Shown one piece after another: positions 14,729 through 41,084 of a DNA stretch of 64,000 bases. The stretch's first letter is position 1; each line of letters begins with the position of its first letter. The notes beneath the pieces are model-generated. The model had not been told where the DNA came from. It saw only the letters and a program-made list of their open reading frames with translations, and did not search any database. The stretch is from Escherichia phage ECML-359. The stretch lies in sequence record OL631482.1. The stretch is one strand, 5' to 3'. A program made the position numbers and the translations under genes.

Positions 14729-14764
14729 TTTATTCTCCAGTATTTGGTAACTCAGTATGGGAAC

Positions 14765-14793
14765 ATTATACGTCTATCCCCATACCATGTACA
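14765..14793 (-). promoter_or_regulatory. early promoter candidate (-35 TGTACA, 17 bp, -10 TATAAT)
   Basis: Minus-strand reading TGTACAtggtatggggatagacgTATAAT; conserved leader to ATG 14728. Confidence 0.45.
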
Positions 14794-23258: not shown

Positions 23259-23717
23259 TTAGATATAAATCACTTTTGTGCTAATTTTTCCTTCCAGACG
23301 ATTAGAGTTAACAAACGCCATACGACAACACATGGTCGGAGACTTCCCAGGAATAGCGGGGTTAACTGTCATTCCTAACCACAGGTTCTTGTCTGTAATT
23401 TCCAGACGAAGTGGACGGTAGTTCACATTCGGGTCAATTTGTGCTTCAACTTCCGGGAGTGGTTTCATCTCCAAGAATTCAACGATTTCTTTTACATGTG
23501 GTGTGATTTTTCCAAACAAGTCAAAAACATATTGTTCATCAATTTCACGTTGGATTGCACGGTCCAACAGGTGCGGACTGTACTTAATGAAGAATGCTTC
23601 AAGGCCTGCTTCTTTACAAGCCTTGTTGATAGCATTATTAATTTTGAGGAACTCCGTTTCAAAAATGCGACGAAGTTTATTGCGGCGAATGTAAACACTT
23701 GAATCGATAGTAGTCAT
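23259..23717 (-). CDS. regB: site-specific RNA endonuclease RegB
   Basis: From internal Met: MTTIDSSVYIRRNKLRR...HLLDRAIQREIDE...RPLRLEITDKNLWLG matches T4 RegB as recalled. Confidence 0.85.
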   Translation of the reverse strand: MTTIDSSVYIRRNKLRRIFETEFLKINNAINKACKEAGLEAFFIKYSPHLLDRAIQREIDEQYVFDLFGKITPHVKEIVEFLEMKPLPEVEAQIDPNVNYRPLRLEITDKNLWLGMTVNPAIPGKSPTMCCRMAFVNSNRLEGKISTKVIYI

Positions 23718-24587: not shown

Positions 24588-24864
24588 TAATTAATCGCAC
24601 ATCCTGGTCATAGGTCAGGAGGCTACGAGTTATAATACCCTTACACGGTCCAGAAATAAATTCCAGAGTAAAGTAAGGAACCAACTTCATCAAGCGAATA
24701 CTCGGAGCAGTGCAACGAAATCTGGACCCAATAAAAGGTCCAGACAAAAACACATACTCAAAGAAATTAGCTTTATTAAAGATTTCATAATTCTTTACAA
24801 AATCCTCAGACCGAACCTTTGGAATAAAATAGAGTTGGTCAAAAAGCTCTTCATGGGTCATCAT
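24565..24864 (-). CDS. hypothetical protein (99 aa)
   Basis: ORF track. Confidence 0.45.
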   Translation of the reverse strand: MMTHEELFDQLYFIPKVRSEDFVKNYEIFNKANFFEYVFLSGPFIGSRFRCTAPSIRLMKLVPYFTLEFISGPCKGIITRSLLTYDQDVRLISDWKKYV

Positions 24865-25388
24865 TGCATTCCTATCACAAAGAACAGGGGCAGGGGTTTA
24901 GAACCCTGGCACATAAATTTATTCATCATTGTCTGATAAGCTTCATAGAACTTATCCATCGCTGGAAGACGCATTGGCTCTTCAATAATAATCAATAATC
25001 GGGTAACAGACAGCCCACGATACTTGTGAAAATGATCTTCATCTAAAAATGAACGAACAGTATCATATACAACAAAACCAGGTCGTTCAACATTAAGATG
25101 TGGCTGTGCTTTAGAAACCCGCTTTATTATATCACAGATTTCTCGTGAGCGATGCGAAGAACTCGACATAACAATTACATCATTACCCTTAGAAACCCAA
25201 TCCGCAGCGAACTGTGCAATGGCACTTGTTTTACCTGTTTGCCTTCCGCCGTCAAGTCTAAGAGTACCAAACTCTTGCATTCTTGAAGCGGGTTCATACC
25301 AGGTGTATTGGTCTGAATCTAAGCGTTCAATGGCGCGTTCAGCGAAGGCGTGCATTAAGGTTAGATAAATGGGAGTTAAAAATTTCAT
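24861..25388 (-). CDS. small P-loop NTPase-like protein (175 aa)
   Basis: Walker A GGRQTGKTS and Walker-B-like LLIIIEEP. Confidence 0.5.
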   Translation of the reverse strand: MKFLTPIYLTLMHAFAERAIERLDSDQYTWYEPASRMQEFGTLRLDGGRQTGKTSAIAQFAADWVSKGNDVIVMSSSSHRSREICDIIKRVSKAQPHLNVERPGFVVYDTVRSFLDEDHFHKYRGLSVTRLLIIIEEPMRLPAMDKFYEAYQTMMNKFMCQGSKPLPLFFVIGMQ

Positions 25389-25552
25389 AATTGTCTCTTT
25401 TTAAGTTGTGGGGCCGTTCCTTGGCACATAATTCATCCGTGTATCCGTATGTAAACCCCTTACCGCACTTGGGCTCGACCTTATTACAGGTAGGGAAAGG
25501 TCCATCACTCAGAGGACGCGACGTTCATGAGGAGAGGGCCGGCTTGCCTTTA

Positions 25553-25852
25553 TTAGAAAGAACCAGAACCTTTAATTGTGTTCTGGCGACCTTTATTTTC
25601 TAATTCAGAATGGTCGATTTCGTATGCTTGTGCTACACCAAAGGCCTTTTTAACTTTAGCTAAAGAACCTTTAGATGTAACAATATTAAAAGTATTGCCT
25701 TTAGTAAAATCAACCAAATCCACTTGTACACCCTGTTTACCGAGGCTTGCTACAATAGCATCAACATATTGTTGGTCTAAAGTACCTTGGACTCCAATTT
25801 GGAATGCTTTAGGGGCTTTGGCTTCTGTGATAAATTCTTGATAAGTTTTCAT
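25553..25852 (-). CDS. internal-protein-like virion protein with capsid-targeting N-terminus
   Basis: Starts MKTYQEFITEA, the T4 IP capsid-targeting sequence; early promoter cassette upstream. Confidence 0.65.
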   Translation of the reverse strand: MKTYQEFITEAKAPKAFQIGVQGTLDQQYVDAIVASLGKQGVQVDLVDFTKGNTFNIVTSKGSLAKVKKAFGVAQAYEIDHSELENKGRQNTIKGSGSF

Positions 25853-25877
25853 TTATTCTCTCCAAGTTGATGGGATA

Positions 25878-25906
25878 ATTATACACTATCCCATCATAAA
25901 GTAAAC
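25878..25906 (-). promoter_or_regulatory. early promoter (-35 GTTTAC, 17 bp, -10 TATAAT) inside palindrome
   Basis: Minus-strand reading GTTTACtttatgatgggatagtgTATAAT; -10 lies in loop of GATGGGATA/TATCCCATC inverted repeat. Confidence 0.55.
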
Positions 25907-25908
25907 AG

Positions 25909-26172
25909 TTATGCTTTACCGCCAGAAACAATACCAAAGGTCTCAAAGTCCCATTCAATATCATCAACATCAACTTTCTTACCAGCAACAACAAATGCGA
26001 TTTCACGGCGTTTTGCATAGGTGACAATTTCTTTACCATCACCGCCAAAGAAAGAATACCCATTACGCTTCATGGTGCCAAAGTCTTCAGCATCGCCAGC
26101 AAAGGCGCGAACTTTAAAAGCACCAGTAGGAGCTTTGGCAGATTCAGTAATAAATTCTTGATAAGTTTTCAT
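25909..26172 (-). CDS. internal-protein-like virion protein with capsid-targeting N-terminus
   Basis: From internal Met: MKTYQEFITES...; mature part shares GDAEDF..(K/R)NGY motif with 39408..39707. Confidence 0.65.
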   Translation of the reverse strand: MKTYQEFITESAKAPTGAFKVRAFAGDAEDFGTMKRNGYSFFGGDGKEIVTYAKRREIAFVVAGKKVDVDDIEWDFETFGIVSGGKA

Positions 26173-26220
26173 TTTATATTCCATTGTTTGGTTGATAAAA
26201 TCATTATACAACCTTTTTAG

Positions 26221-26637
26221 TTAAGCGTACACAGCTTTCCCATAGTATTTGTACCAGGTAGGCTTTTGAGAAATTTTCTCATTCAGTCTGGCTTGACTGA
26301 TTTCAATTGACCAGATTGATGGTTGATAATCATTCTTCCATTCATCAGGAATATCATTTAAATCTTGTGTAGAAATATCTTTTATGTTAAACCCTCGCTT
26401 TAAACATTCCGCAATAAGTTCTTGATGCCGGTTTTTAAGGAACAAAAGCTTATCATAAAAGAAGGTGACATGACCAGTCCCTAAAAGAAAAGATGATGGG
26501 ATTTTAAAGTCAGACACCTTTTTACCATTTTGCACATGCTTACGAACAGCGCCAAAAACGCGAGGAAGTTCACGATATTCAGCCATAAGATGTTGGTCAG
26601 CGAGTTCAGATACCAGGGTTAAATTAATGCGAGTCAT
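26221..26637 (-). CDS. denV: endonuclease V (pyrimidine-dimer DNA glycosylase)
   Basis: 138 aa; [35 protein letters not shown]...[10 protein letters not shown] matches T4 DenV as recalled. Confidence 0.9.
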
Positions 26638-26663
26638 GTTTGTTCTCCGTAGTTGATAGGGTC

Positions 26664-26692
26664 ATTATAACCCTATCATTTGGAGATGTACA
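26664..26692 (-). promoter_or_regulatory. early promoter (-35 TGTACA, 17 bp, -10 TATAAT) inside palindrome
   Basis: Minus-strand reading TGTACAtctccaaatgatagggtTATAAT upstream of denV. Confidence 0.5.
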
Positions 26693-27181
26693 CTAATATG
26701 CGTCAAAAGTTCCGGTACGGAACGTTTCTATAACTCGTTTGGCTCGGTTCGGAGTCTGGACTTTATACCATCTTGAGTCCGCCAGTTCCTTGGCAGCCGC
26801 TTCCCATGATTTAGCCTTCAGTAATCGCATACCCTTAGGAAAACCAGCAACACCAGCAACACCCATCTGGAATACCATATTAATGAGTGCACAACGACGA
26901 ACTTCATCCAGTACATCATAAACAGGTTTTAAGACAGGATGCCTCAAGATTCCGGCTTTAGCCTTTTCGACCGAACGGTTAAACAGTGTTTCGGCTTCGT
27001 GCTGGGTTATACGACCATTACAAACGCGACCCATGAGCTTATCGAGCTCGGCGCGAGCAACATCTTTAGATGGGTTCTTAGTTATCAGTTGCCCGATGCC
27101 AATGGTCCAATAGCCTTCAGTATCTTTATACAAATCCAACTTACAACCTTCATCTATACGTAACATTTCGAATATATTCAT
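26693..27181 (-). CDS. e: lysozyme (endolysin)
   Basis: 162 aa; [12 protein letters not shown]...[13 protein letters not shown]...[14 protein letters not shown] matches T4 lysozyme as recalled. Confidence 0.95.
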
Positions 27182-27182
27182 A

Positions 27183-27204
27183 ATACCCCCTTATATAGGG
27201 GTAT
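27183..27204 (-). promoter_or_regulatory. leader hairpin occluding the lysozyme SD, with overlapping late-promoter-like AATAAATA
   Basis: 7-bp stem ATACCCC/GGGGTAT ending 1 nt before the e start codon; AAGGGGG SD lies in the loop/3-prime arm. Confidence 0.5.
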
Positions 27205-27207
27205 TTA

Positions 27208-27666
27208 TTATCCGAAAATTTGAGTCATTACCTTGTACATCGATTTGCCCATCACATACTGCCATTGACTCGGTTTAATCAGAGCAAATGCATCGAACTC
27301 TGGAACCGAACTACCATCCGGGAAGGTATGATAGGCAGAGCATTTACTATGTCTGAACTGCTCATGCTCGACCGGAACCGTGTACAGAAACAGGTGAAGA
27401 TTTTTGTTATCTGAATAACGGAATTCACCCAGGTCCTTTAAGAATGCTGGGTCATATTGGGTAAACCCGGTTTCTTCTTCGGTTTCACGGATAGCAGCTT
27501 CAATCGGGGATTCACCAGCTTCAACATGACCCTTAGGGATGTCCCATTTGTGTGCAGGCATACCTGGTTTACGAGAACCAGTCACACGACCCATGAATAA
27601 CTCTTTATCTTCAGTCATGAAAATAATGCCGGCGGATAATTCTTTCACCTTGTTTTTCTTACTCAT
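27208..27666 (-). CDS. nudE: Nudix hydrolase
   Basis: Nudix box GHVEAGESPIEAAIRETEEETGF; start at MSKKNKV after trimming track ORF. Confidence 0.8.
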   Translation of the reverse strand: MSKKNKVKELSAGIIFMTEDKELFMGRVTGSRKPGMPAHKWDIPKGHVEAGESPIEAAIRETEEETGFTQYDPAFLKDLGEFRYSDNKNLHLFLYTVPVEHEQFRHSKCSAYHTFPDGSSVPEFDAFALIKPSQWQYVMGKSMYKVMTQIFG

Positions 27667-34183: not shown

Positions 34184-34489
34184 TTAGATTTTGTTTTCCT
34201 GCACACCATAGTAAAGTTCATCAGACACAATATCCAGGATGCGGCGAACATATTCATCATGGTATTGGCAGTCAAAATCAAATGCAACAGTAGTTTCCGC
34301 TTCACGAGTGAATTTAACTTGCACATTCAGGTGATTAACAACGTTAGTTAATTTATCAGTAAAGAACTCTTTTGCTACCGCCTGTTGGACTTGCACTTTA
34401 AACTTGGTGTTACGAATCATATTTTCAGCAGATGCGAAATTACCAGTTTTATCAAAGTCAACAAGCGCCAGGTTGATGATGAATTTCAT
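34184..34489 (-). CDS. hypothetical protein (101 aa)
   Basis: ORF track; promoter cassette upstream. Confidence 0.5.
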   Translation of the reverse strand: MKFIINLALVDFDKTGNFASAENMIRNTKFKVQVQQAVAKEFFTDKLTNVVNHLNVQVKFTREAETTVAFDFDCQYHDEYVRRILDIVSDELYYGVQENKI

Positions 34490-34572
34490 TTTATTCTCCA
34501 GTGTTTTATTTGGTAACTCAGTATGGAATCATTATGCCTTAAAGCAGGGGGCTTGTATACCCCCTTTTTGAA

Positions 34573-35004
34573 TTAAATTTCAAATTCTTTGCGGAAGTTG
34601 GAAGCATAAGACTGAACTGATGCTTTGTTGAATCCAAACTCACGCACAATCATATCAATAACAGCTCTGCGAGCAGCACCATTAGACATATTAACAGTTT
34701 TGAACATATCATAGCATAAATCTTTGTTGCTCATACCGGAGCGTTTAGGTGCCTTACGTTCAGCTTTAGGAGTAGGTTTAACTTCTGGTTTAACCTGTCC
34801 ATCATTCAGACCTTTAAAAATTTTACCTGCCAGAGTTGCCAGTTTAGCAGCTTCGCCACGAGTGATACCAAATACTGCCGGGTTAAATGAAATACCTTCA
34901 GCTGCCAGACGTTTGAAGAACATACGTGCTGCGGATTGTGCTTCAGCTTCAGAAGAGTTGTTTAATGCCAGCTTAACGTACTTAACCAGTTTTGAAGTTT
35001 TCAT
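34573..35004 (-). CDS. hypothetical protein, paralog of 35087..35512
   Basis: Shared C-terminal module NGAARRAVIDMIV...VQSYASNFRK. Confidence 0.55.
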   Translation of the reverse strand: MKTSKLVKYVKLALNNSSEAEAQSAARMFFKRLAAEGISFNPAVFGITRGEAAKLATLAGKIFKGLNDGQVKPEVKPTPKAERKAPKRSGMSNKDLCYDMFKTVNMSNGAARRAVIDMIVREFGFNKASVQSYASNFRKEFEI

Positions 35005-35045
35005 TTTATTCTCCAGTGTTTTATTTGGTAACTCAGTATGGGATA

Positions 35046-35074
35046 ATTATACACTATCCCACTTGGAAGTAAAA
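35046..35074 (-). promoter_or_regulatory. early promoter (-35 TTTTAC, 17 bp, -10 TATAAT) inside palindrome
   Basis: Minus-strand reading TTTTACttccaagtgggatagtgTATAAT, then conserved leader ...actgagttaccaaataaaacactggagaataaa. Confidence 0.5.
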
Positions 35075-35512: not shown

Positions 35513-35618
35513 TTTATTTCTCCAAAGTTTTGTTTGATTCAGTGTGTAACTCAGTATGGAATCATTATGCATCCAGTCAATTCGGATGTACACTACTTTT
35601 TGAAGAAATATTAAAAAT

Positions 35619-38187: not shown

Positions 38188-38612
38188 CCTTCATCAACAA
38201 TAGTATGTGTATTAGCATTAACAATCTGCCACCAGTCAAAACGGTTGGAACCATAACAAGGCTTCTTCTCGTTTTCTTTAATGATATCACGCAGTTCATC
38301 TTCAGTCGCAGCTTTTGCAATTAAGTCAGCATAACCGCCACGAGGATAATAGCTATCACCTGCAAAGAGCAAAAAGTTTGTTTTGATATTCTTGAATTCT
38401 TCAAGTGTAATAACTGTTCCATTGGGTTGAACAATATCCACATAACTATACCCTAATTCCTGGGCTTTATCTACCGCCTCAAGCAGGGTGTCGTGTGCCC
38501 ACCCAATTTGACAATCTGGTTTTTCAGATGGGTTTGCCTGATAATCCGCATACACTTTATACATTTTACTCACCTTTGGAGATTTTATCCATAACGAAAG
38601 AGATTGAACCAA
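38184..38612 (-). CDS. hypothetical protein (142 aa)
   Basis: ORF track. Confidence 0.5.
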   Translation of the reverse strand: MVQSLSLWIKSPKVSKMYKVYADYQANPSEKPDCQIGWAHDTLLEAVDKAQELGYSYVDIVQPNGTVITLEEFKNIKTNFLLFAGDSYYPRGGYADLIAKAATEDELRDIIKENEKKPCYGSNRFDWWQIVNANTHTIVDEG

Positions 38613-38751
38613 TTAAAAATGCAACTACTAAAGAGATTATATTCTCAGAAGTTGAAAGCATATTCAACATAAAGCCAGCAAACATGCTAAAACCAAAAGC
38701 GGTAACAGCAACAAGGGCAGTAACATTTCTAATTAATTCGCAACGTTTCAT
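38566..38751 (-). CDS. hypothetical small membrane protein (61 aa)
   Basis: Two hydrophobic segments; directly downstream of promoter cassette. Confidence 0.4.
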   Translation of the reverse strand: MKRCELIRNVTALVAVTAFGFSMFAGFMLNMLSTSENIISLVVAFLIGSISFVMDKISKGE

Positions 38752-38779
38752 TTTATTCTCCTCAGTAGTTGATGGGATA

Positions 38780-38808
38780 ATTATACGCTATCCCATTCAA
38801 AAGTACAC
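38780..38808 (-). promoter_or_regulatory. early promoter candidate (-35 GTGTAC, 17 bp, -10 TATAAT) inside palindrome
   Basis: Minus-strand reading GTGTACttttgaatgggatagcgTATAAT, then leader tatcccatcaactactgaggagaataaa. Confidence 0.45.
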
Positions 38809-39063
38809 TTATTTTTTAGGGATACGATAGTAACGCATCTCAACATCTTTCTGCTTGTGCCACTTTTTGATAAGGTCTTCAGAACCTTTAATGGTAACGA
38901 TGTCATAGCGACCATCATGCGATACTTCAGCACTTAACTGCATGAAGTTGTCTAGTGAACGGCGCAATTCCTCATTAGAAAAACTACCACGCGGGGAACC
39001 AACATAAGCAAACTCAACTTTTGCATCTGCGGCTTCGTTAATAAATTCTTGATAAGTTTTCAT
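38809..39063 (-). CDS. internal-protein-like virion protein with capsid-targeting N-terminus
   Basis: Starts MKTYQEFINEAA. Confidence 0.65.
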   Translation of the reverse strand: MKTYQEFINEAADAKVEFAYVGSPRGSFSNEELRRSLDNFMQLSAEVSHDGRYDIVTIKGSEDLIKKWHKQKDVEMRYYRIPKK

Positions 39064-39088
39064 GTTGTCTCCAGTAGTTGATGAGATA

Positions 39089-39118
39089 ATTATACTGCAG
39101 TTATCCCATCGCGTATAC
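39089..39118 (-). promoter_or_regulatory. early promoter candidate (-35 GTATAC, 18 bp, -10 TATAAT)
   Basis: Minus-strand reading GTATACgcgatgggataactgcagTATAAT, then leader tatctcatcaactactggagacaac. Confidence 0.45.
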
Positions 39119-39119
39119 T

Positions 39120-39362
39120 TTATTTTAAGTCTTCCAGACGTTTTTTCATCTTGGTGCCGTTCTTAGCAATCTCGCCTGCATCAGAACAAAGAGCAAGGAG
39201 AGCTTTAACTTTACCCTGGTCGCCTTTAAAAGATGATGCATCTACTGAATCAGCAAGTTCTTTGATACGTGCAAACAGGCGCTCTGCTTCAGCAAGGGCT
39301 TGACCAAGTTTAACTTCCATACCATGGGAAGATTCTGTTATAAATGTTTGATAAGTTTTCAT
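39120..39362 (-). CDS. internal-protein-like virion protein with capsid-targeting N-terminus
   Basis: Starts MKTYQTFITESS. Confidence 0.65.
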   Translation of the reverse strand: MKTYQTFITESSHGMEVKLGQALAEAERLFARIKELADSVDASSFKGDQGKVKALLALCSDAGEIAKNGTKMKKRLEDLK

Positions 39363-39384
39363 GTTGTCTCCAAGCCATAAAAAG

Positions 39385-39400
39385 GGGATAATTATCCCCT
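39385..39400. terminator. perfect 16-bp palindrome GGGGATAATTATCCCC flanked by A4/T4, terminator-like
   Basis: Looks like a collapsed copy of the promoter-cassette palindrome lacking a separate -10. Confidence 0.45.
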
Positions 39401-39407
39401 TTTGTTA

Positions 39408-39707
39408 TTACATCTTACTACCACGAATTACGCCATAAGCAGCGAAGTCGTCAGTGATATTTTTAGGAGTGTTTTTACCCGTTTCAATGAAAGCGATGCT
39501 TGATTTCTGACTAAAAGAGGTAATTTTGTTATAGTTAGAGTCAAGGAAGGTATAACCATTTTTACGCAGCTGGTCAAAGTCTTCAGCGTCGCCTTTACCT
39601 TTGAAGTCAACCCATTTGTAGGTGTTTTTCTTCTGAAGGCCCAGAGGCCAGGTTTTTGCTTCTGCCAGGTAATTGTTTTCTACCAAAAATTCATGAAAAG
39701 TTTGCAT
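39408..39707 (-). CDS. internal-protein-like virion protein with capsid-targeting N-terminus
   Basis: Starts MQTFHEFLVEN; mature part paralogous to 25909..26172. Confidence 0.65.
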   Translation of the reverse strand: MQTFHEFLVENNYLAEAKTWPLGLQKKNTYKWVDFKGKGDAEDFDQLRKNGYTFLDSNYNKITSFSQKSSIAFIETGKNTPKNITDDFAAYGVIRGSKM

Positions 39708-39715
39708 TTGAAATC

Positions 39716-39988
39716 CTATTTAAGATAAATTGCGTATTTTTTATAACCAGCCGTCTCATGGCGAAGACCCTTGTCATTGGCAAAACGCTCAATGTTATTA
39801 ATTTGGTTCTGGTCAAGTTCTGAAATGCCAAACGCGAAAAAGTTGCGTTTGTTGCCAATTGTTATATGGTCAGTTAAGTCAATGCTATACAGGTGATTGA
39901 TATTGTCAATCATAGCTTTGACTGCTTTACTAATTTTTACTTCTTCATTTAGTTGTGACTCGTTGAAAAATTCATTGAAAGTTTTCAT
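39716..39988 (-). CDS. internal-protein-like virion protein with capsid-targeting N-terminus
   Basis: Starts MKTFNEFFNES. Confidence 0.6.
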   Translation of the reverse strand: MKTFNEFFNESQLNEEVKISKAVKAMIDNINHLYSIDLTDHITIGNKRNFFAFGISELDQNQINNIERFANDKGLRHETAGYKKYAIYLK

Positions 39989-39996
39989 AAGAAACC

Positions 39997-40329
39997 TTAT
40001 TTATAAAGTTTTGCTAGTTCTTTACGTCCGCGAGCAGACATAATAAATTGTTCATCGCCAATTTTAAAATAAGCCATACCGCCGTCAACAGCGATACCAA
40101 TTTCTTTAGTACCTTCTTTGCCTTTCCACTTGCCACCAGATTTCAGGACAGCTTCAACTGCAGCTTTGGAATATTTGGACGTTTGAAAACGTTCATTACC
40201 AATCTGAAAGAAAACACCATCTGCATTTTTGGTTAAACCAAATTTCAGGGAGCCTTCACTATCATCAATTGATTTGGTCTCATTGATGGCGGATTCGGCT
40301 AAAAACTCGTTGTAAGTTTTGATGTTCAT
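39997..40329 (-). CDS. internal-protein-like virion protein with capsid-targeting-like N-terminus
   Basis: Starts MNIKTYNEFLAES; Gly/Lys-rich mature part. Confidence 0.55.
   Translation of the reverse strand: MNIKTYNEFLAESAINETKSIDDSEGSLKFGLTKNADGVFFQIGNERFQTSKYSKAAVEAVLKSGGKWKGKEGTKEIGIAVDGGMAYFKIGDEQFIMSARGRKELAKLYK

Positions 40330-40393: not shown

Positions 40394-41084
<691 letters not shown>

What the first reader, a model, noticed from the sequence alone, without database searches (positions are those of the whole stretch)
25553..26172. Second internal-protein locus, with one member paralogous to a gene in the first array
Two further genes start with MKTYQEFITEA and MKTYQEFITES, placed between denV and regB (the ipII/ipIII neighbourhood of T4, though denV and the ip genes are in swapped order relative to T4). 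The mature part of 25909..26172 shares GDAEDF..(K/R)NGY(T/S)F and IAF..GK blocks with 39408..39707 in the other locus, while 25553..25852 is unrelated. This indicates cargo exchange between two separately located, separately promoted delivery-tag loci.
Basis: partly seen in the sequence, partly recalled or inferred. Interest (0 to 1): 0.6.

Follow-up and report, generated by a model that had tools for sequence, protein, structure and literature searches.

The report
Second internal-protein locus of T4-like phage
Two small genes beside the DNA-repair gene denV of a T4-like phage very probably encode proteins that are packed into the phage head and injected with the DNA, a well-known and fast-changing gene class, and one of them is an old duplicate of a gene in the phage's other such locus.

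Summary
Window 25909..26172 (A, 87 aa) and 25553..25852 (B, 99 aa), both on the minus strand, start with MKTYQEFITE. This is 9/10 identical to the capsid-targeting sequence (CTS) of T4 IPII/IPIII and ends in an I-x-E prohead-protease site. They lie between denV and vs.8, upstream of regB, in a Gaprivervirus (VR7/SP18-like, 96% identity).

With the CTS removed, A still aligns with 39408..39707 (C): z = 20.7, 0/1000 shuffles. B is unrelated to A/C by profile and by fold search; it belongs to the Ip7 family.

The interpretation needs correcting. A and C are old paralogues (32-39% identity), and each keeps its own locus in Gaprivervirus and in Salmonella phage S16. A further relative sits in the ipI-locus position in Morganella phage MP1, so this is not recent exchange.

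Movement between the loci is nevertheless general. At least 6 of 23 cargo families occur at both loci in different phages. An Ip10 gene present in SP18/VR7 and absent here has its endpoints inside the 33-35-nt CTS-coding repeat.

All of this fits known biology: two Ip loci, PeSL cassettes, and Ip1-3 acting as type IV restriction inhibitors. The finding is a new member of a known kind.

In passing: the 165 nt at 25389..25553 is a conserved, covarying RNA-like element with no Rfam match.

The parts
25909..26172 (-). Gene A. 87-aa internal-protein precursor of the RB69ORF125c / S16 gp70.1 family. CTS codons 26172..26143 (MKTYQEFITE). Predicted mature protein 26142..25912: 77 aa, 8.3 kDa, pI 6.2.
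   Evidence: ORF. Orthologues annotated 'internal head protein' in SP18, VR7, S16 and RB69. 204 phage records hold a match covering at least 80% of the mature protein. dN/dS 0.03-0.25. phrog_2667 'internal head protein', E = 6e-21. AF2 model pLDDT 84. Mass and pI.
25553..25852 (-). Gene B. 99-aa internal-protein precursor of the Ip7 family. CTS codons 25852..25823. Predicted mature protein 25822..25556: 89 aa, 9.5 kDa, pI 9.3.
   Evidence: ORF. phrog_2667 full length, E = 1.7e-42. 47% identical to RB32 Ip7 and about 47% to a T2 homologue annotated 'internal head protein'. 99% identical to JS98/JS10 homologues. Foldseek top hit 'Ip7 protein', E = 6e-11. dN/dS 0.13.
26140..26172 (-). 33-nt CTS-coding repeat ATGAAAACTTATCAAGAATTTATTACTGAATCT. 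It is the recombination endpoint of the Ip10 presence/absence polymorphism.
   Evidence: In SP18/VR7 two identical copies (33-35 nt) flank the Ip10 cargo. The window and P479 have one copy, joined upstream to the Ip10-type leader and downstream to the A cargo. Six CTS+RBS copies form repeat family D1.
26203..26231 (-). Promoter-like site upstream of A (TGTACG, 17 nt, TATAAT). It overlaps the denV stop codon.
   Evidence: and the sequence. Weak -35 (4/6); consensus match only.
25868..25905 (-). PeSL upstream of B. T4-type early promoter (TTTACT, 16 nt, TATAAT) with the -10 box inside a 12-bp stem-loop (TGATGGGATAGT...ATTATCCCATCA).
   Evidence: Repeat family D3 has copies at 35033-35074 and 38767-38808 (88%). 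The motif type is described in PMC2839356 and PMC4122927.
25807..25884 (-). 78-nt 'head module' (stem-loop, RBS, CTS codons) shared with the ipI-locus gene D (39018-39095) at 78% identity.
   Evidence: Repeat family D4.
39408..39707 (-). Gene C. 99-aa paralogue of A in the ipI-locus array. Divergent CTS MQTFHEFLVE and a second L-x-E site (LAE, residues 14-16).
   Evidence: 78% identical to S16 gp78 and 42% to MP1 gp136 over the CTS-stripped proteins. MP1 gp136 lies directly after 57B and was detected in virions by MS (PMC5384007).
38809..40329 (-). First array (ipI locus, between 57B at 40394..40849 and trna.4 at 38566..38751). Genes G 39997..40329, F 39716..39988 (Ip9, 83%), C, E 39120..39362 (Ip5, 90%), D 38809..39063.
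26221..26637 (-). denV, the conserved upstream flank of the slot. It has its own PeSL at 26654..26692.
   Evidence: 78% identical to T4 DenV..
25389..25553 (-). Conserved structured non-coding element forming the downstream boundary of the slot, immediately upstream of vs.8.
   Evidence: See Noticed in passing.

Best explanation
A and B are genes for internal head proteins (Ips) of a VR7/SP18-like T-even phage. They sit in the denV|vs.8 slot of the second of the two Ip loci known from T4.

Inferred from the T4 paradigm:
- The 10-residue N-terminal capsid-targeting sequence takes each precursor into the scaffolding core of the prohead.
- The gp21 prohead protease cuts after Glu10 (I-T-E).
- The ~8-9.5 kDa mature proteins stay in the head with the DNA and are injected with it.
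- They most likely disarm a host 'first-response' defence, probably a variant of type IV (GmrSD-like) restriction.

Shown here:
- A and the ipI-locus gene C are ancient paralogues of one phage-only family with an alpha/beta fold that has no clear structural relative. Each is fixed at its own locus across genera.
- B belongs to the unrelated Ip7 family, which sits at the ipI locus in RB32.
- Cargo turnover uses short repeats. The 33-35-nt CTS-coding sequence, together with the stem-loop/RBS module upstream, acts as a constant 'head' behind which cargo-coding segments are deleted, inserted or moved. This explains both the Ip10 indel at this locus and the presence of the same families at either locus in different phages.
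For: Identity and context:
- The window is 96% identical to SP18/VR7, where the genes are annotated as internal head proteins.
- The CTS is 9/10 identical to T4 IPII/IPIII.
- There is a single I-x-E site at residues 8-10.
- Position matches the T4 ipII/ipIII neighbourhood.

Real genes: dN/dS 0.03-0.25. A-family matches occur in 205 phage records and B-family matches in 283.

Paralogy: z = 20.7 without the CTS.

Ancient and positionally fixed: S16 gp70.1 and gp78, and MP1 gp136.

Phage-only family: an exhaustive profile search found only small CTS-bearing proteins, plus spurious repeat proteins.

Virion evidence for the family: MP1 gp136, 6 peptides, 59% coverage in purified virions (PMC5384007).

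Shuffling:
- Ip10 indel endpoints lie in the CTS repeat.
- A 78-nt head module is shared between the loci.
- 6 or more of 23 families occur at both loci.
- RB32's ipI locus holds Ip5-Ip9-Ip7, with annotated 43-bp flanking repeats.

Function by analogy: T4 Ip1, Ip2 and Ip3 each inhibit a distinct GmrSD. The authors of PMC12373910 propose the same for all proteins of the two Ip loci. IPIII acts in the cytoplasm (PMC9391042).
Against: - No virion proteomics or cleavage data exist for A or B themselves.
- The MP1 mass-spectrometry list also contains non-structural proteins (57B, dNMP kinase, endolysin), so detection there is suggestive only.
- A, B and C share no sequence similarity with T4 Ip1-3 beyond the CTS, so the anti-restriction role is by analogy alone.
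- Ten other ip genes tested against new GmrSD variants gave no inhibition in PMC12373910.
- Mature A is near neutral (pI 6.2), unlike the basic T4 IPs.
- There is no perfect late promoter (TATAAATA) at this locus, so late-phase synthesis for packaging rests on early-type promoters or read-through.
- Some Gapriverviruses reportedly lack known hmC-synthesis enzymes (PMC8056088), so the relevant host nuclease may differ.
Confidence: 0.85

Rival explanations
1. Recent cargo exchange. The A cargo domain was copied recently between the two loci of this phage lineage.
For: A and C share clear homology. Both loci carry similar head modules that could mediate transfer.
Against: Only 32-39% identity between A-type and C-type. 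A-type and C-type orthologues each sit at the same locus in Gaprivervirus and in S16, at ~80% identity to their window counterparts. A relative closer to C than to A occupies the ipI-locus position in Morganella phage MP1. Synonymous divergence between the window and S16 is already saturated (dS 1.3-1.6), yet the paralogues are far more divergent than that.
Confidence: 0.05
2. A and B are head-assembly or DNA-condensing accessory proteins rather than anti-defence effectors. They would be packaged, but acting inside the capsid, as suggested historically for IPIII.
For: T4 IPIII mutants show slower head assembly and smaller bursts (PMC9026906). B and C are basic (pI 9.3-9.5).
Against: Presence/absence varies among more than 94% identical genomes, which argues against a structural requirement. 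All three T4 Ips now have defined anti-restriction targets (PMC12373910). A is not basic.
Confidence: 0.1
3. The ORFs carry a CTS-like N-terminus but are ordinary early cytoplasmic proteins that are not packaged.
For: Only early-type promoters are evident at this locus and there is no perfect late promoter.
Against: Ten N-terminal residues suffice for packaging in T4, with positions 4 and 7 critical for targeting and 8 and 10 for cleavage (PMC9026906). All four positions are conserved here. A family member was detected in MP1 virions.
Confidence: 0.05

Closest known systems
T4 internal proteins IPII and IPIII (ipII/ipIII locus between e and denV)
   Same: Same genomic neighbourhood (e-denV-vs.8). 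Nearly identical CTS (MKTYQEFIAE vs MKTYQEFITE) with the gp21 site. IPII is of similar small size, whereas IPIII is larger (193 aa). Non-essential accessory character is inferred from presence/absence polymorphism.
   Different: The genes lie on the other side of denV. The mature domains have no detectable similarity to IPII, IPIII or IPI. Their targets are unknown.
Ip7 of RB32 and related Tequatroviruses (ipI-locus gene)
   Same: B is a family member: 47% identity over the whole mature domain to RB32 Ip7, and the Foldseek top hit is 'Ip7 protein'.
   Different: In RB32, Ip7 lies in the ipI locus after 57B. Here, and in JS98/JS10/VR7, the homologue is next to denV/vs.8.
RB69ORF125c / S16 gp70.1 and S16 gp78 / MP1 gp136 (unnamed Ip family)
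   Same: A is the orthologue of RB69ORF125c and S16 gp70.1. C is the orthologue of S16 gp78. All share the GDAEDF...NGY(S/T)F...IA(F/Y) core and the predicted alpha/beta fold (TM 0.83 to the MP1 protein).
   Different: Nothing substantive. The window phage simply carries both paralogues, as S16 does.
PeSLs (promoter-early stem-loops) of T4-type phages (Arbiol et al. 2010; Comeau et al. 2014)
   Same: An early promoter embedded in a stem-loop, repeated in hyperplastic regions and flanking variable ORFs. The promoter-in-stem-loop arrangement is as described for PeSLs. The published PST/T4 consensus is TTTACW-N17-TAYWAT, and here the B site has a 16-nt spacer (TTTACT-N16-TATAAT).
   Different: Here an additional repeat, the CTS-coding sequence itself, provides the observed indel endpoints.

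Membership tests
T4-type internal (injected) head proteins | N-terminal capsid-targeting sequence resembling MKTYQEFIAE, with the targeting residues at positions 4 and 7 | tested here: met
   A and B start MKTYQEFITE, 9/10 identical to T4 IPII/IPIII. Y4 and F7 are conserved. Feature definition from PMC9026906.
T4-type internal (injected) head proteins | gp21 prohead-protease site (L/I-x-E) at the end of the CTS | tested here: met
   I8-T9-E10 in A and B is the only L/I-x-E site in each. C has two, at residues 8-10 and 14-16. This is the motif only; cleavage itself is not testable here.
T4-type internal (injected) head proteins | Encoded in one of the two Ip loci (57B-tRNA region, or e-denV-vs.8 region) | tested here: met
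   The 'two distinct loci' statement is in PMC12373910.
T4-type internal (injected) head proteins | Physically present in the mature virion in processed form and injected with the DNA | not testable with these tools
   Indirect only. MP1 gp136 (A/C family) was detected in virions at 59% coverage (PMC5384007).
GmrSD (type IV restriction) inhibitors Ip1/Ip2/Ip3 | Sequence or fold homology of the mature domain to Ip1, Ip2 or Ip3 | tested here: not met
   No BLASTP hit of any window Ip to T4 IpI/II/III at E < 0.01 with the CTS stripped. No hit at E <= 1 to any phage internal protein among PDB sequences. Fold searches return only the query's own family.
GmrSD (type IV restriction) inhibitors Ip1/Ip2/Ip3 | Specific inhibition of a GmrSD-type nuclease | not testable with these tools
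   Requires plaque assays or binding assays.
PeSL regulatory cassettes | T4 early-type promoter combined with a stem-loop, repeated and flanking variable ORFs in hyperplastic regions | tested here: met
   Seven such sites on the gene strand of the window, five of them at the two Ip loci. Repeat families D3 and D4. Definition from PMC4122927.
Ip7 family (for B) | Full-length similarity of the mature domain to Ip7 | tested here: met
   47% identity over 88 aa to RB32 Ip7, E = 4e-22. Foldseek hit to 'Ip7 protein', E = 6e-11.

The most novel reading that the evidence does not exclude
The A/C family would be a new, structurally orphan class of injected anti-defence proteins. Its two long-maintained paralogues, one per Ip locus, would neutralise two different variants of a host nuclease. 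This would happen in phages (Gaprivervirus) some of which reportedly lack the known hmC pathway, so the targets may not be classical GmrSD enzymes. The CTS-coding repeat would be the actual crossover site that lets any cargo be swapped behind a constant promoter-RBS-signal module.
Probability: 0.35. Interest if true: 0.5.

Novelty: new member of a known kind. Interest (0 to 1): 0.27.

Why it matters
Injected internal proteins are the first phage products to meet host immunity. All three T4 examples turned out to be specific inhibitors of type IV restriction enzymes.

The census made here is a ready list of candidate anti-defence proteins and of the hot spots where they are exchanged:
- 23 cargo families;
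- at least 6 of them found at either locus;
- a phage-only A/C family with an orphan fold and two stably kept paralogues.

The Ip10 indel gives a clean example of recombination inside the signal-peptide-like CTS codons. This is useful for phage engineering, since cargo can be swapped behind a native head module. For the field this is incremental, not surprising.

Tried and rejected
- Pfam: nothing above threshold for any of the seven Ips.
- PHROGs puts A, B and C all in phrog_2667. I tested whether that reflects real homology. CTS-stripped hhalign gave 0.9% and reciprocal Foldseek searches did not connect them. I therefore treat the PHROG lumping as CTS-driven.
- The word-indexed homologue searches returned only 5 close relatives each. 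The exhaustive profile search added a few small CTS proteins. Its large hits (P0017-P0021) are Ig/TIG/SprB repeat proteins, or in one case (P0020) a tandem-repeat protein with no significant Pfam domain, matching through many weak stretches, so I rejected them as spurious.
- PDB sequence search: nothing.
- Late promoter: no perfect TATAAATA at this locus.
- RNA element: no Rfam hit at E <= 1. Single-sequence folding is no better than shuffles (z = 0.04). RNAalifold alone is weak (-4.65 kcal/mol). The core 23-mer is absent from 185,579 bacterial and archaeal genomes.
- Literature: one call failed on a term shorter than 3 characters and two searches were swamped by unrelated meanings of Ip7/Ip10 and DENV. 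Repoila et al. 1994 (PMC395341) is not held. PMC2993671 does not mention Ips.

Full report
**What the window is.** A 1.4-kb stretch around the finding is 96% identical to Shigella phage SP18 and to Escherichia phages TH57 and P479, and 94% identical to vB_EcoM_VR7. SP18, VR7 and P479 are classified in Gaprivervirus, Tevenvirinae. All genes in this part of the window are on the minus strand.

The order in transcription direction is nudE, e (26693..27181), denV (26221..26637), A (25909..26172), B (25553..25852), vs.8 (24861..25388), vs.7, vs.4, vs.3, regB (23268..23711). T4 has e, ipIII, ipII, denV, vs.8. RB69 has ip-type genes on both sides of denV, so there are in effect two insertion slots flanking denV.

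**Check of the observation.** A and B start MKTYQEFITES and MKTYQEFITEA. T4 IPII and IPIII start MKTYQEFIAEA. Each has one L/I-x-E motif, at residues 8-10.

In T4 the first ten residues of IPIII suffice for capsid targeting. Residues 4 and 7 matter for targeting and residues 8 and 10 for processing (PMC9026906). All four are conserved here.

A pattern for this N-terminus finds exactly seven ORFs in the 64-kb window: A, B and the five genes at 38809..40329. Those five follow 57B (40394..40849) and precede trna.4, which is the ipI locus.

A aligns with C (39408..39707) at E = 4e-16. With the targeting sequence removed, the local alignment score is 121 against 25.4 +/- 4.6 for shuffles (z = 20.7, 0/1000). 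All other pairs among the seven mature domains are at chance level.

PHROGs places A, B and C in one family, phrog_2667, so I tested this. Profile-profile comparison of CTS-stripped family alignments gives 0.9% probability for B-family vs A/C-family. Foldseek with the A model returns only A/C-family proteins. Foldseek with the B model returns only Ip7.

**What the genes are.**
- B is 99% identical to JS98/JS10 homologues, 47% to RB32 Ip7, and about 47% to a T2 homologue annotated 'internal head protein'.
- A is the orthologue of RB69ORF125c (75%) and S16 gp70.1 (80%).
- C is the orthologue of S16 gp78 (78%) and a relative of Morganella phage MP1 gp136 (42%).
- E is Ip5 (90% to RB32) and F is Ip9 (83%).
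- None of the seven resembles T4 IpI, IpII or IpIII beyond the CTS.

The genes are under purifying selection, with dN/dS 0.03-0.25.

An exhaustive profile search of 1.8 billion representative proteins found only a handful of small CTS-bearing proteins for the A/C family. One is a 194-aa two-domain form. The other hits are spurious repeat proteins. The family is phage-only.

**Virion evidence.** None exists for A or B themselves. MP1 gp136, an A/C-family member located directly after 57B, was detected in purified MP1 virions with 6 peptides and 59% coverage (PMC5384007, Table 1). That list also includes non-structural proteins, so this is supportive rather than conclusive.

**Is the A/C pair 'cargo exchange'?** Not in the sense of a recent event. 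Phages with two matching places are the Gapriverviruses and the S16-like Salmonella phages. In the Mosigvirus records listed there is only one matching place, the A type.

In S16 the A type lies next to vs.8 and the C type directly after 57B, as in the window. In MP1 the family member lies after 57B. A-type and C-type proteins are only 32-39% identical, whereas each is about 80% identical to its S16 counterpart. The duplication therefore predates the divergence of these genera, and both copies have been kept. This suggests they do different jobs.

**Do cargo genes move between the loci in general?** Yes. I fetched 80 denV-anchored and 28 57B-anchored loci from IMG/VR, extracted 116 CTS-bearing ORFs, and clustered their mature parts into 23 families. 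I discarded two cases: one caused by overlapping flanks, and one ambiguous case (a cluster-2, F-like ORF about 3.3 kb from denV in L018).

After that, six families have members at both loci in different phages:
- the Ip7 family (B);
- the G-like family;
- the A/C family;
- the Ip5 family (E);
- two further families, one of which has visibly very similar N-terminal regions at the two loci in different phages.

RB32 gives a named example. Its ipI locus holds Ip5-Ip9-Ip7. Its annotation notes similarity of Ip5 to RB69ORF127c, which lies at the e-denV position, and 43-bp direct repeats flanking Ip9 and Ip7. Only one pair of families (clusters 5 and 13) is related at profile level. The cargoes are thus truly diverse and share only the CTS.

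**Mechanism of turnover.** SP18 and VR7 carry a third gene, Ip10, between denV and A. The window and P479 do not.

The alignment shows that the sequence from the end of denV through the leader and the first 33 nt of the coding sequence is identical in all four phages. In SP18/VR7 this head is followed by the Ip10 cargo, a 16-nt spacer, a second identical copy of the 33-35-nt CTS-coding sequence, and then the A cargo. In the window the single CTS copy is followed directly by the A cargo. The indel endpoints therefore lie in the CTS-coding direct repeat. In the window, A is expressed from what is the Ip10 leader in SP18.

Between the loci, a 78-nt module (stem-loop, RBS, CTS codons) upstream of B (25807-25884) recurs upstream of D (39018-39095) at 78% identity. 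The promoter-stem-loop upstream of B recurs at 38767-38808 (88%) and at 35033-35074.

[quoted passage not shown] Seven occur on the gene strand of the window, five of them at the two Ip loci.

**Function.** T4 Ip1, Ip2 and Ip3 each inhibit a different GmrSD-type type IV restriction enzyme. The authors suggest that all proteins of 'the two Ip loci' target variants of this system (PMC12373910). IPIII works in the cytoplasm without its CTS (PMC9391042). By analogy, A, B and C are most likely injected anti-defence proteins.

This step is inference only:
- There is no homology to Ip1-3.
- Ten other ip genes showed no activity against new GmrSD variants.
- Some Gapriverviruses reportedly lack known hmC-synthesis enzymes (PMC8056088), so the relevant host nuclease may differ.

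**Expression.** B has a good T4 early-type promoter (10/12 match) inside a stem-loop. A has a weaker promoter-like site overlapping the denV stop codon. A perfect late promoter (TATAAATA) occurs in front of F in the ipI array (40005..39998), but none at this locus.

**Noticed next to the finding.** The 165 nt between B and vs.8 (25389..25553) are 53% G+C in a ~36% G+C context. They are far better conserved than the flanking genes: about 81% identity to S16, where synonymous sites of gene A are saturated (dS 1.26).

Parts of the element occur in 1013 phage records, including T4. There its core lies inside what is probably a mis-annotated 5' extension of vs.8. One-nucleotide indels and shifted reading frames rule out coding conservation.

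I proposed a seven-helix structure.
- On 29 sequences, 88.7% of cells pair, against 80.3% in shuffles.
- 51 cells have compensatory changes, against 11.
- The covariation score is 0.217, against 0.090, with 0/500 shuffles as high.
- Slid controls reach at most 0.066.
- The result holds on a model-based alignment.

U-G pairs favour the gene-sense strand. A covariance model finds one copy per Tevenvirinae denV locus and none elsewhere. Rfam has no match, and the core is absent from bacterial genomes. I could not establish its function.

**Verdict.** The feature is a new member of a well-known kind.

Noticed in passing
window 25389..25553 (minus strand), between gene B and vs.8: A 165-nt G+C-rich non-coding element, conserved across Tevenvirinae genera far above synonymous-site conservation of neighbouring genes, with parts in 1013 phage records. 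A seven-helix structure shows significant covariation (51 compensatory cells vs 11 in shuffles, 0/500). U-G pairs favour the sense strand. One copy per denV locus. No Rfam family matches, and the core is absent from bacterial genomes. Candidate new structured RNA, either a vs.8 leader or a 3' structure of the ip/denV transcripts.
   Followed up: partly
L116 3798..3958 (T4 NC_000866 about 64,797-64,957): The annotated T4 Vs.8 (219 aa, MRDSRQPVIRSSPSAV...) seems to carry a spurious N-terminal extension of about 40 aa that covers the conserved RNA-like element. In the window the gene starts at the residue aligned with T4's internal MRTFLTGPYLSLMNAF, and the S16 and RB69 DNA aligns the same way.
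   Followed up: partly
L022 4416..4680 (IMG/VR contig 2974496990): Two tandem, divergent copies of the RNA-like element lie downstream of denV. The second copy carries further compensatory variants (GCCU/AGGC in P4, CCG/CGG in P5).
   Followed up: no
window 39408..39707 (gene C) and homologues P0008-P0010: C-type proteins have a second protease-type motif (LAE/LNE/LTE at about residues 14-16) after the CTS site. This predicts a longer or two-step propeptide, unlike A-type proteins.
   Followed up: no
P0014 (194 aa): A two-domain member of the A/C family: an N-terminal A/C-like domain, then MTE/LTE motifs, then an unrelated C-terminal half. It may be a polyprotein-like internal protein cut by the prohead protease.
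   Followed up: no
window about 39379..39403 (minus strand), just after gene C: A terminator-like hairpin, AAAGGGGATAATTATCCCCTTTTT. It looks like the stem-loop half of a PeSL without the promoter, and it splits the five-gene ipI array into two units.
   Followed up: no
window 39998..40005 (minus strand): A perfect T4 late-promoter box (TATAAATA) lies at the end of gene G, in front of F in the ipI array. The denV-side locus has none. The PeSL loops contain TATAATTA, one mismatch away from the late box.
   Followed up: partly
window 14753..14787 and 35038..35062 (minus strand): Two further PeSL copies outside the Ip loci. Repeats at 34484-34535, 34999-35050 and 35517-35568 suggest another small cassette array around 34.4-35.6 kb.
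   Followed up: no
window 27187..27209 (upstream of e): A near-late-promoter box (AATAAATA) followed by the hairpin CCCCTATATAAGGGG just before the lysozyme start codon. From memory, this resembles the arrangement described for T4 gene e, where a hairpin masks translation initiation in early transcripts.
   Followed up: no
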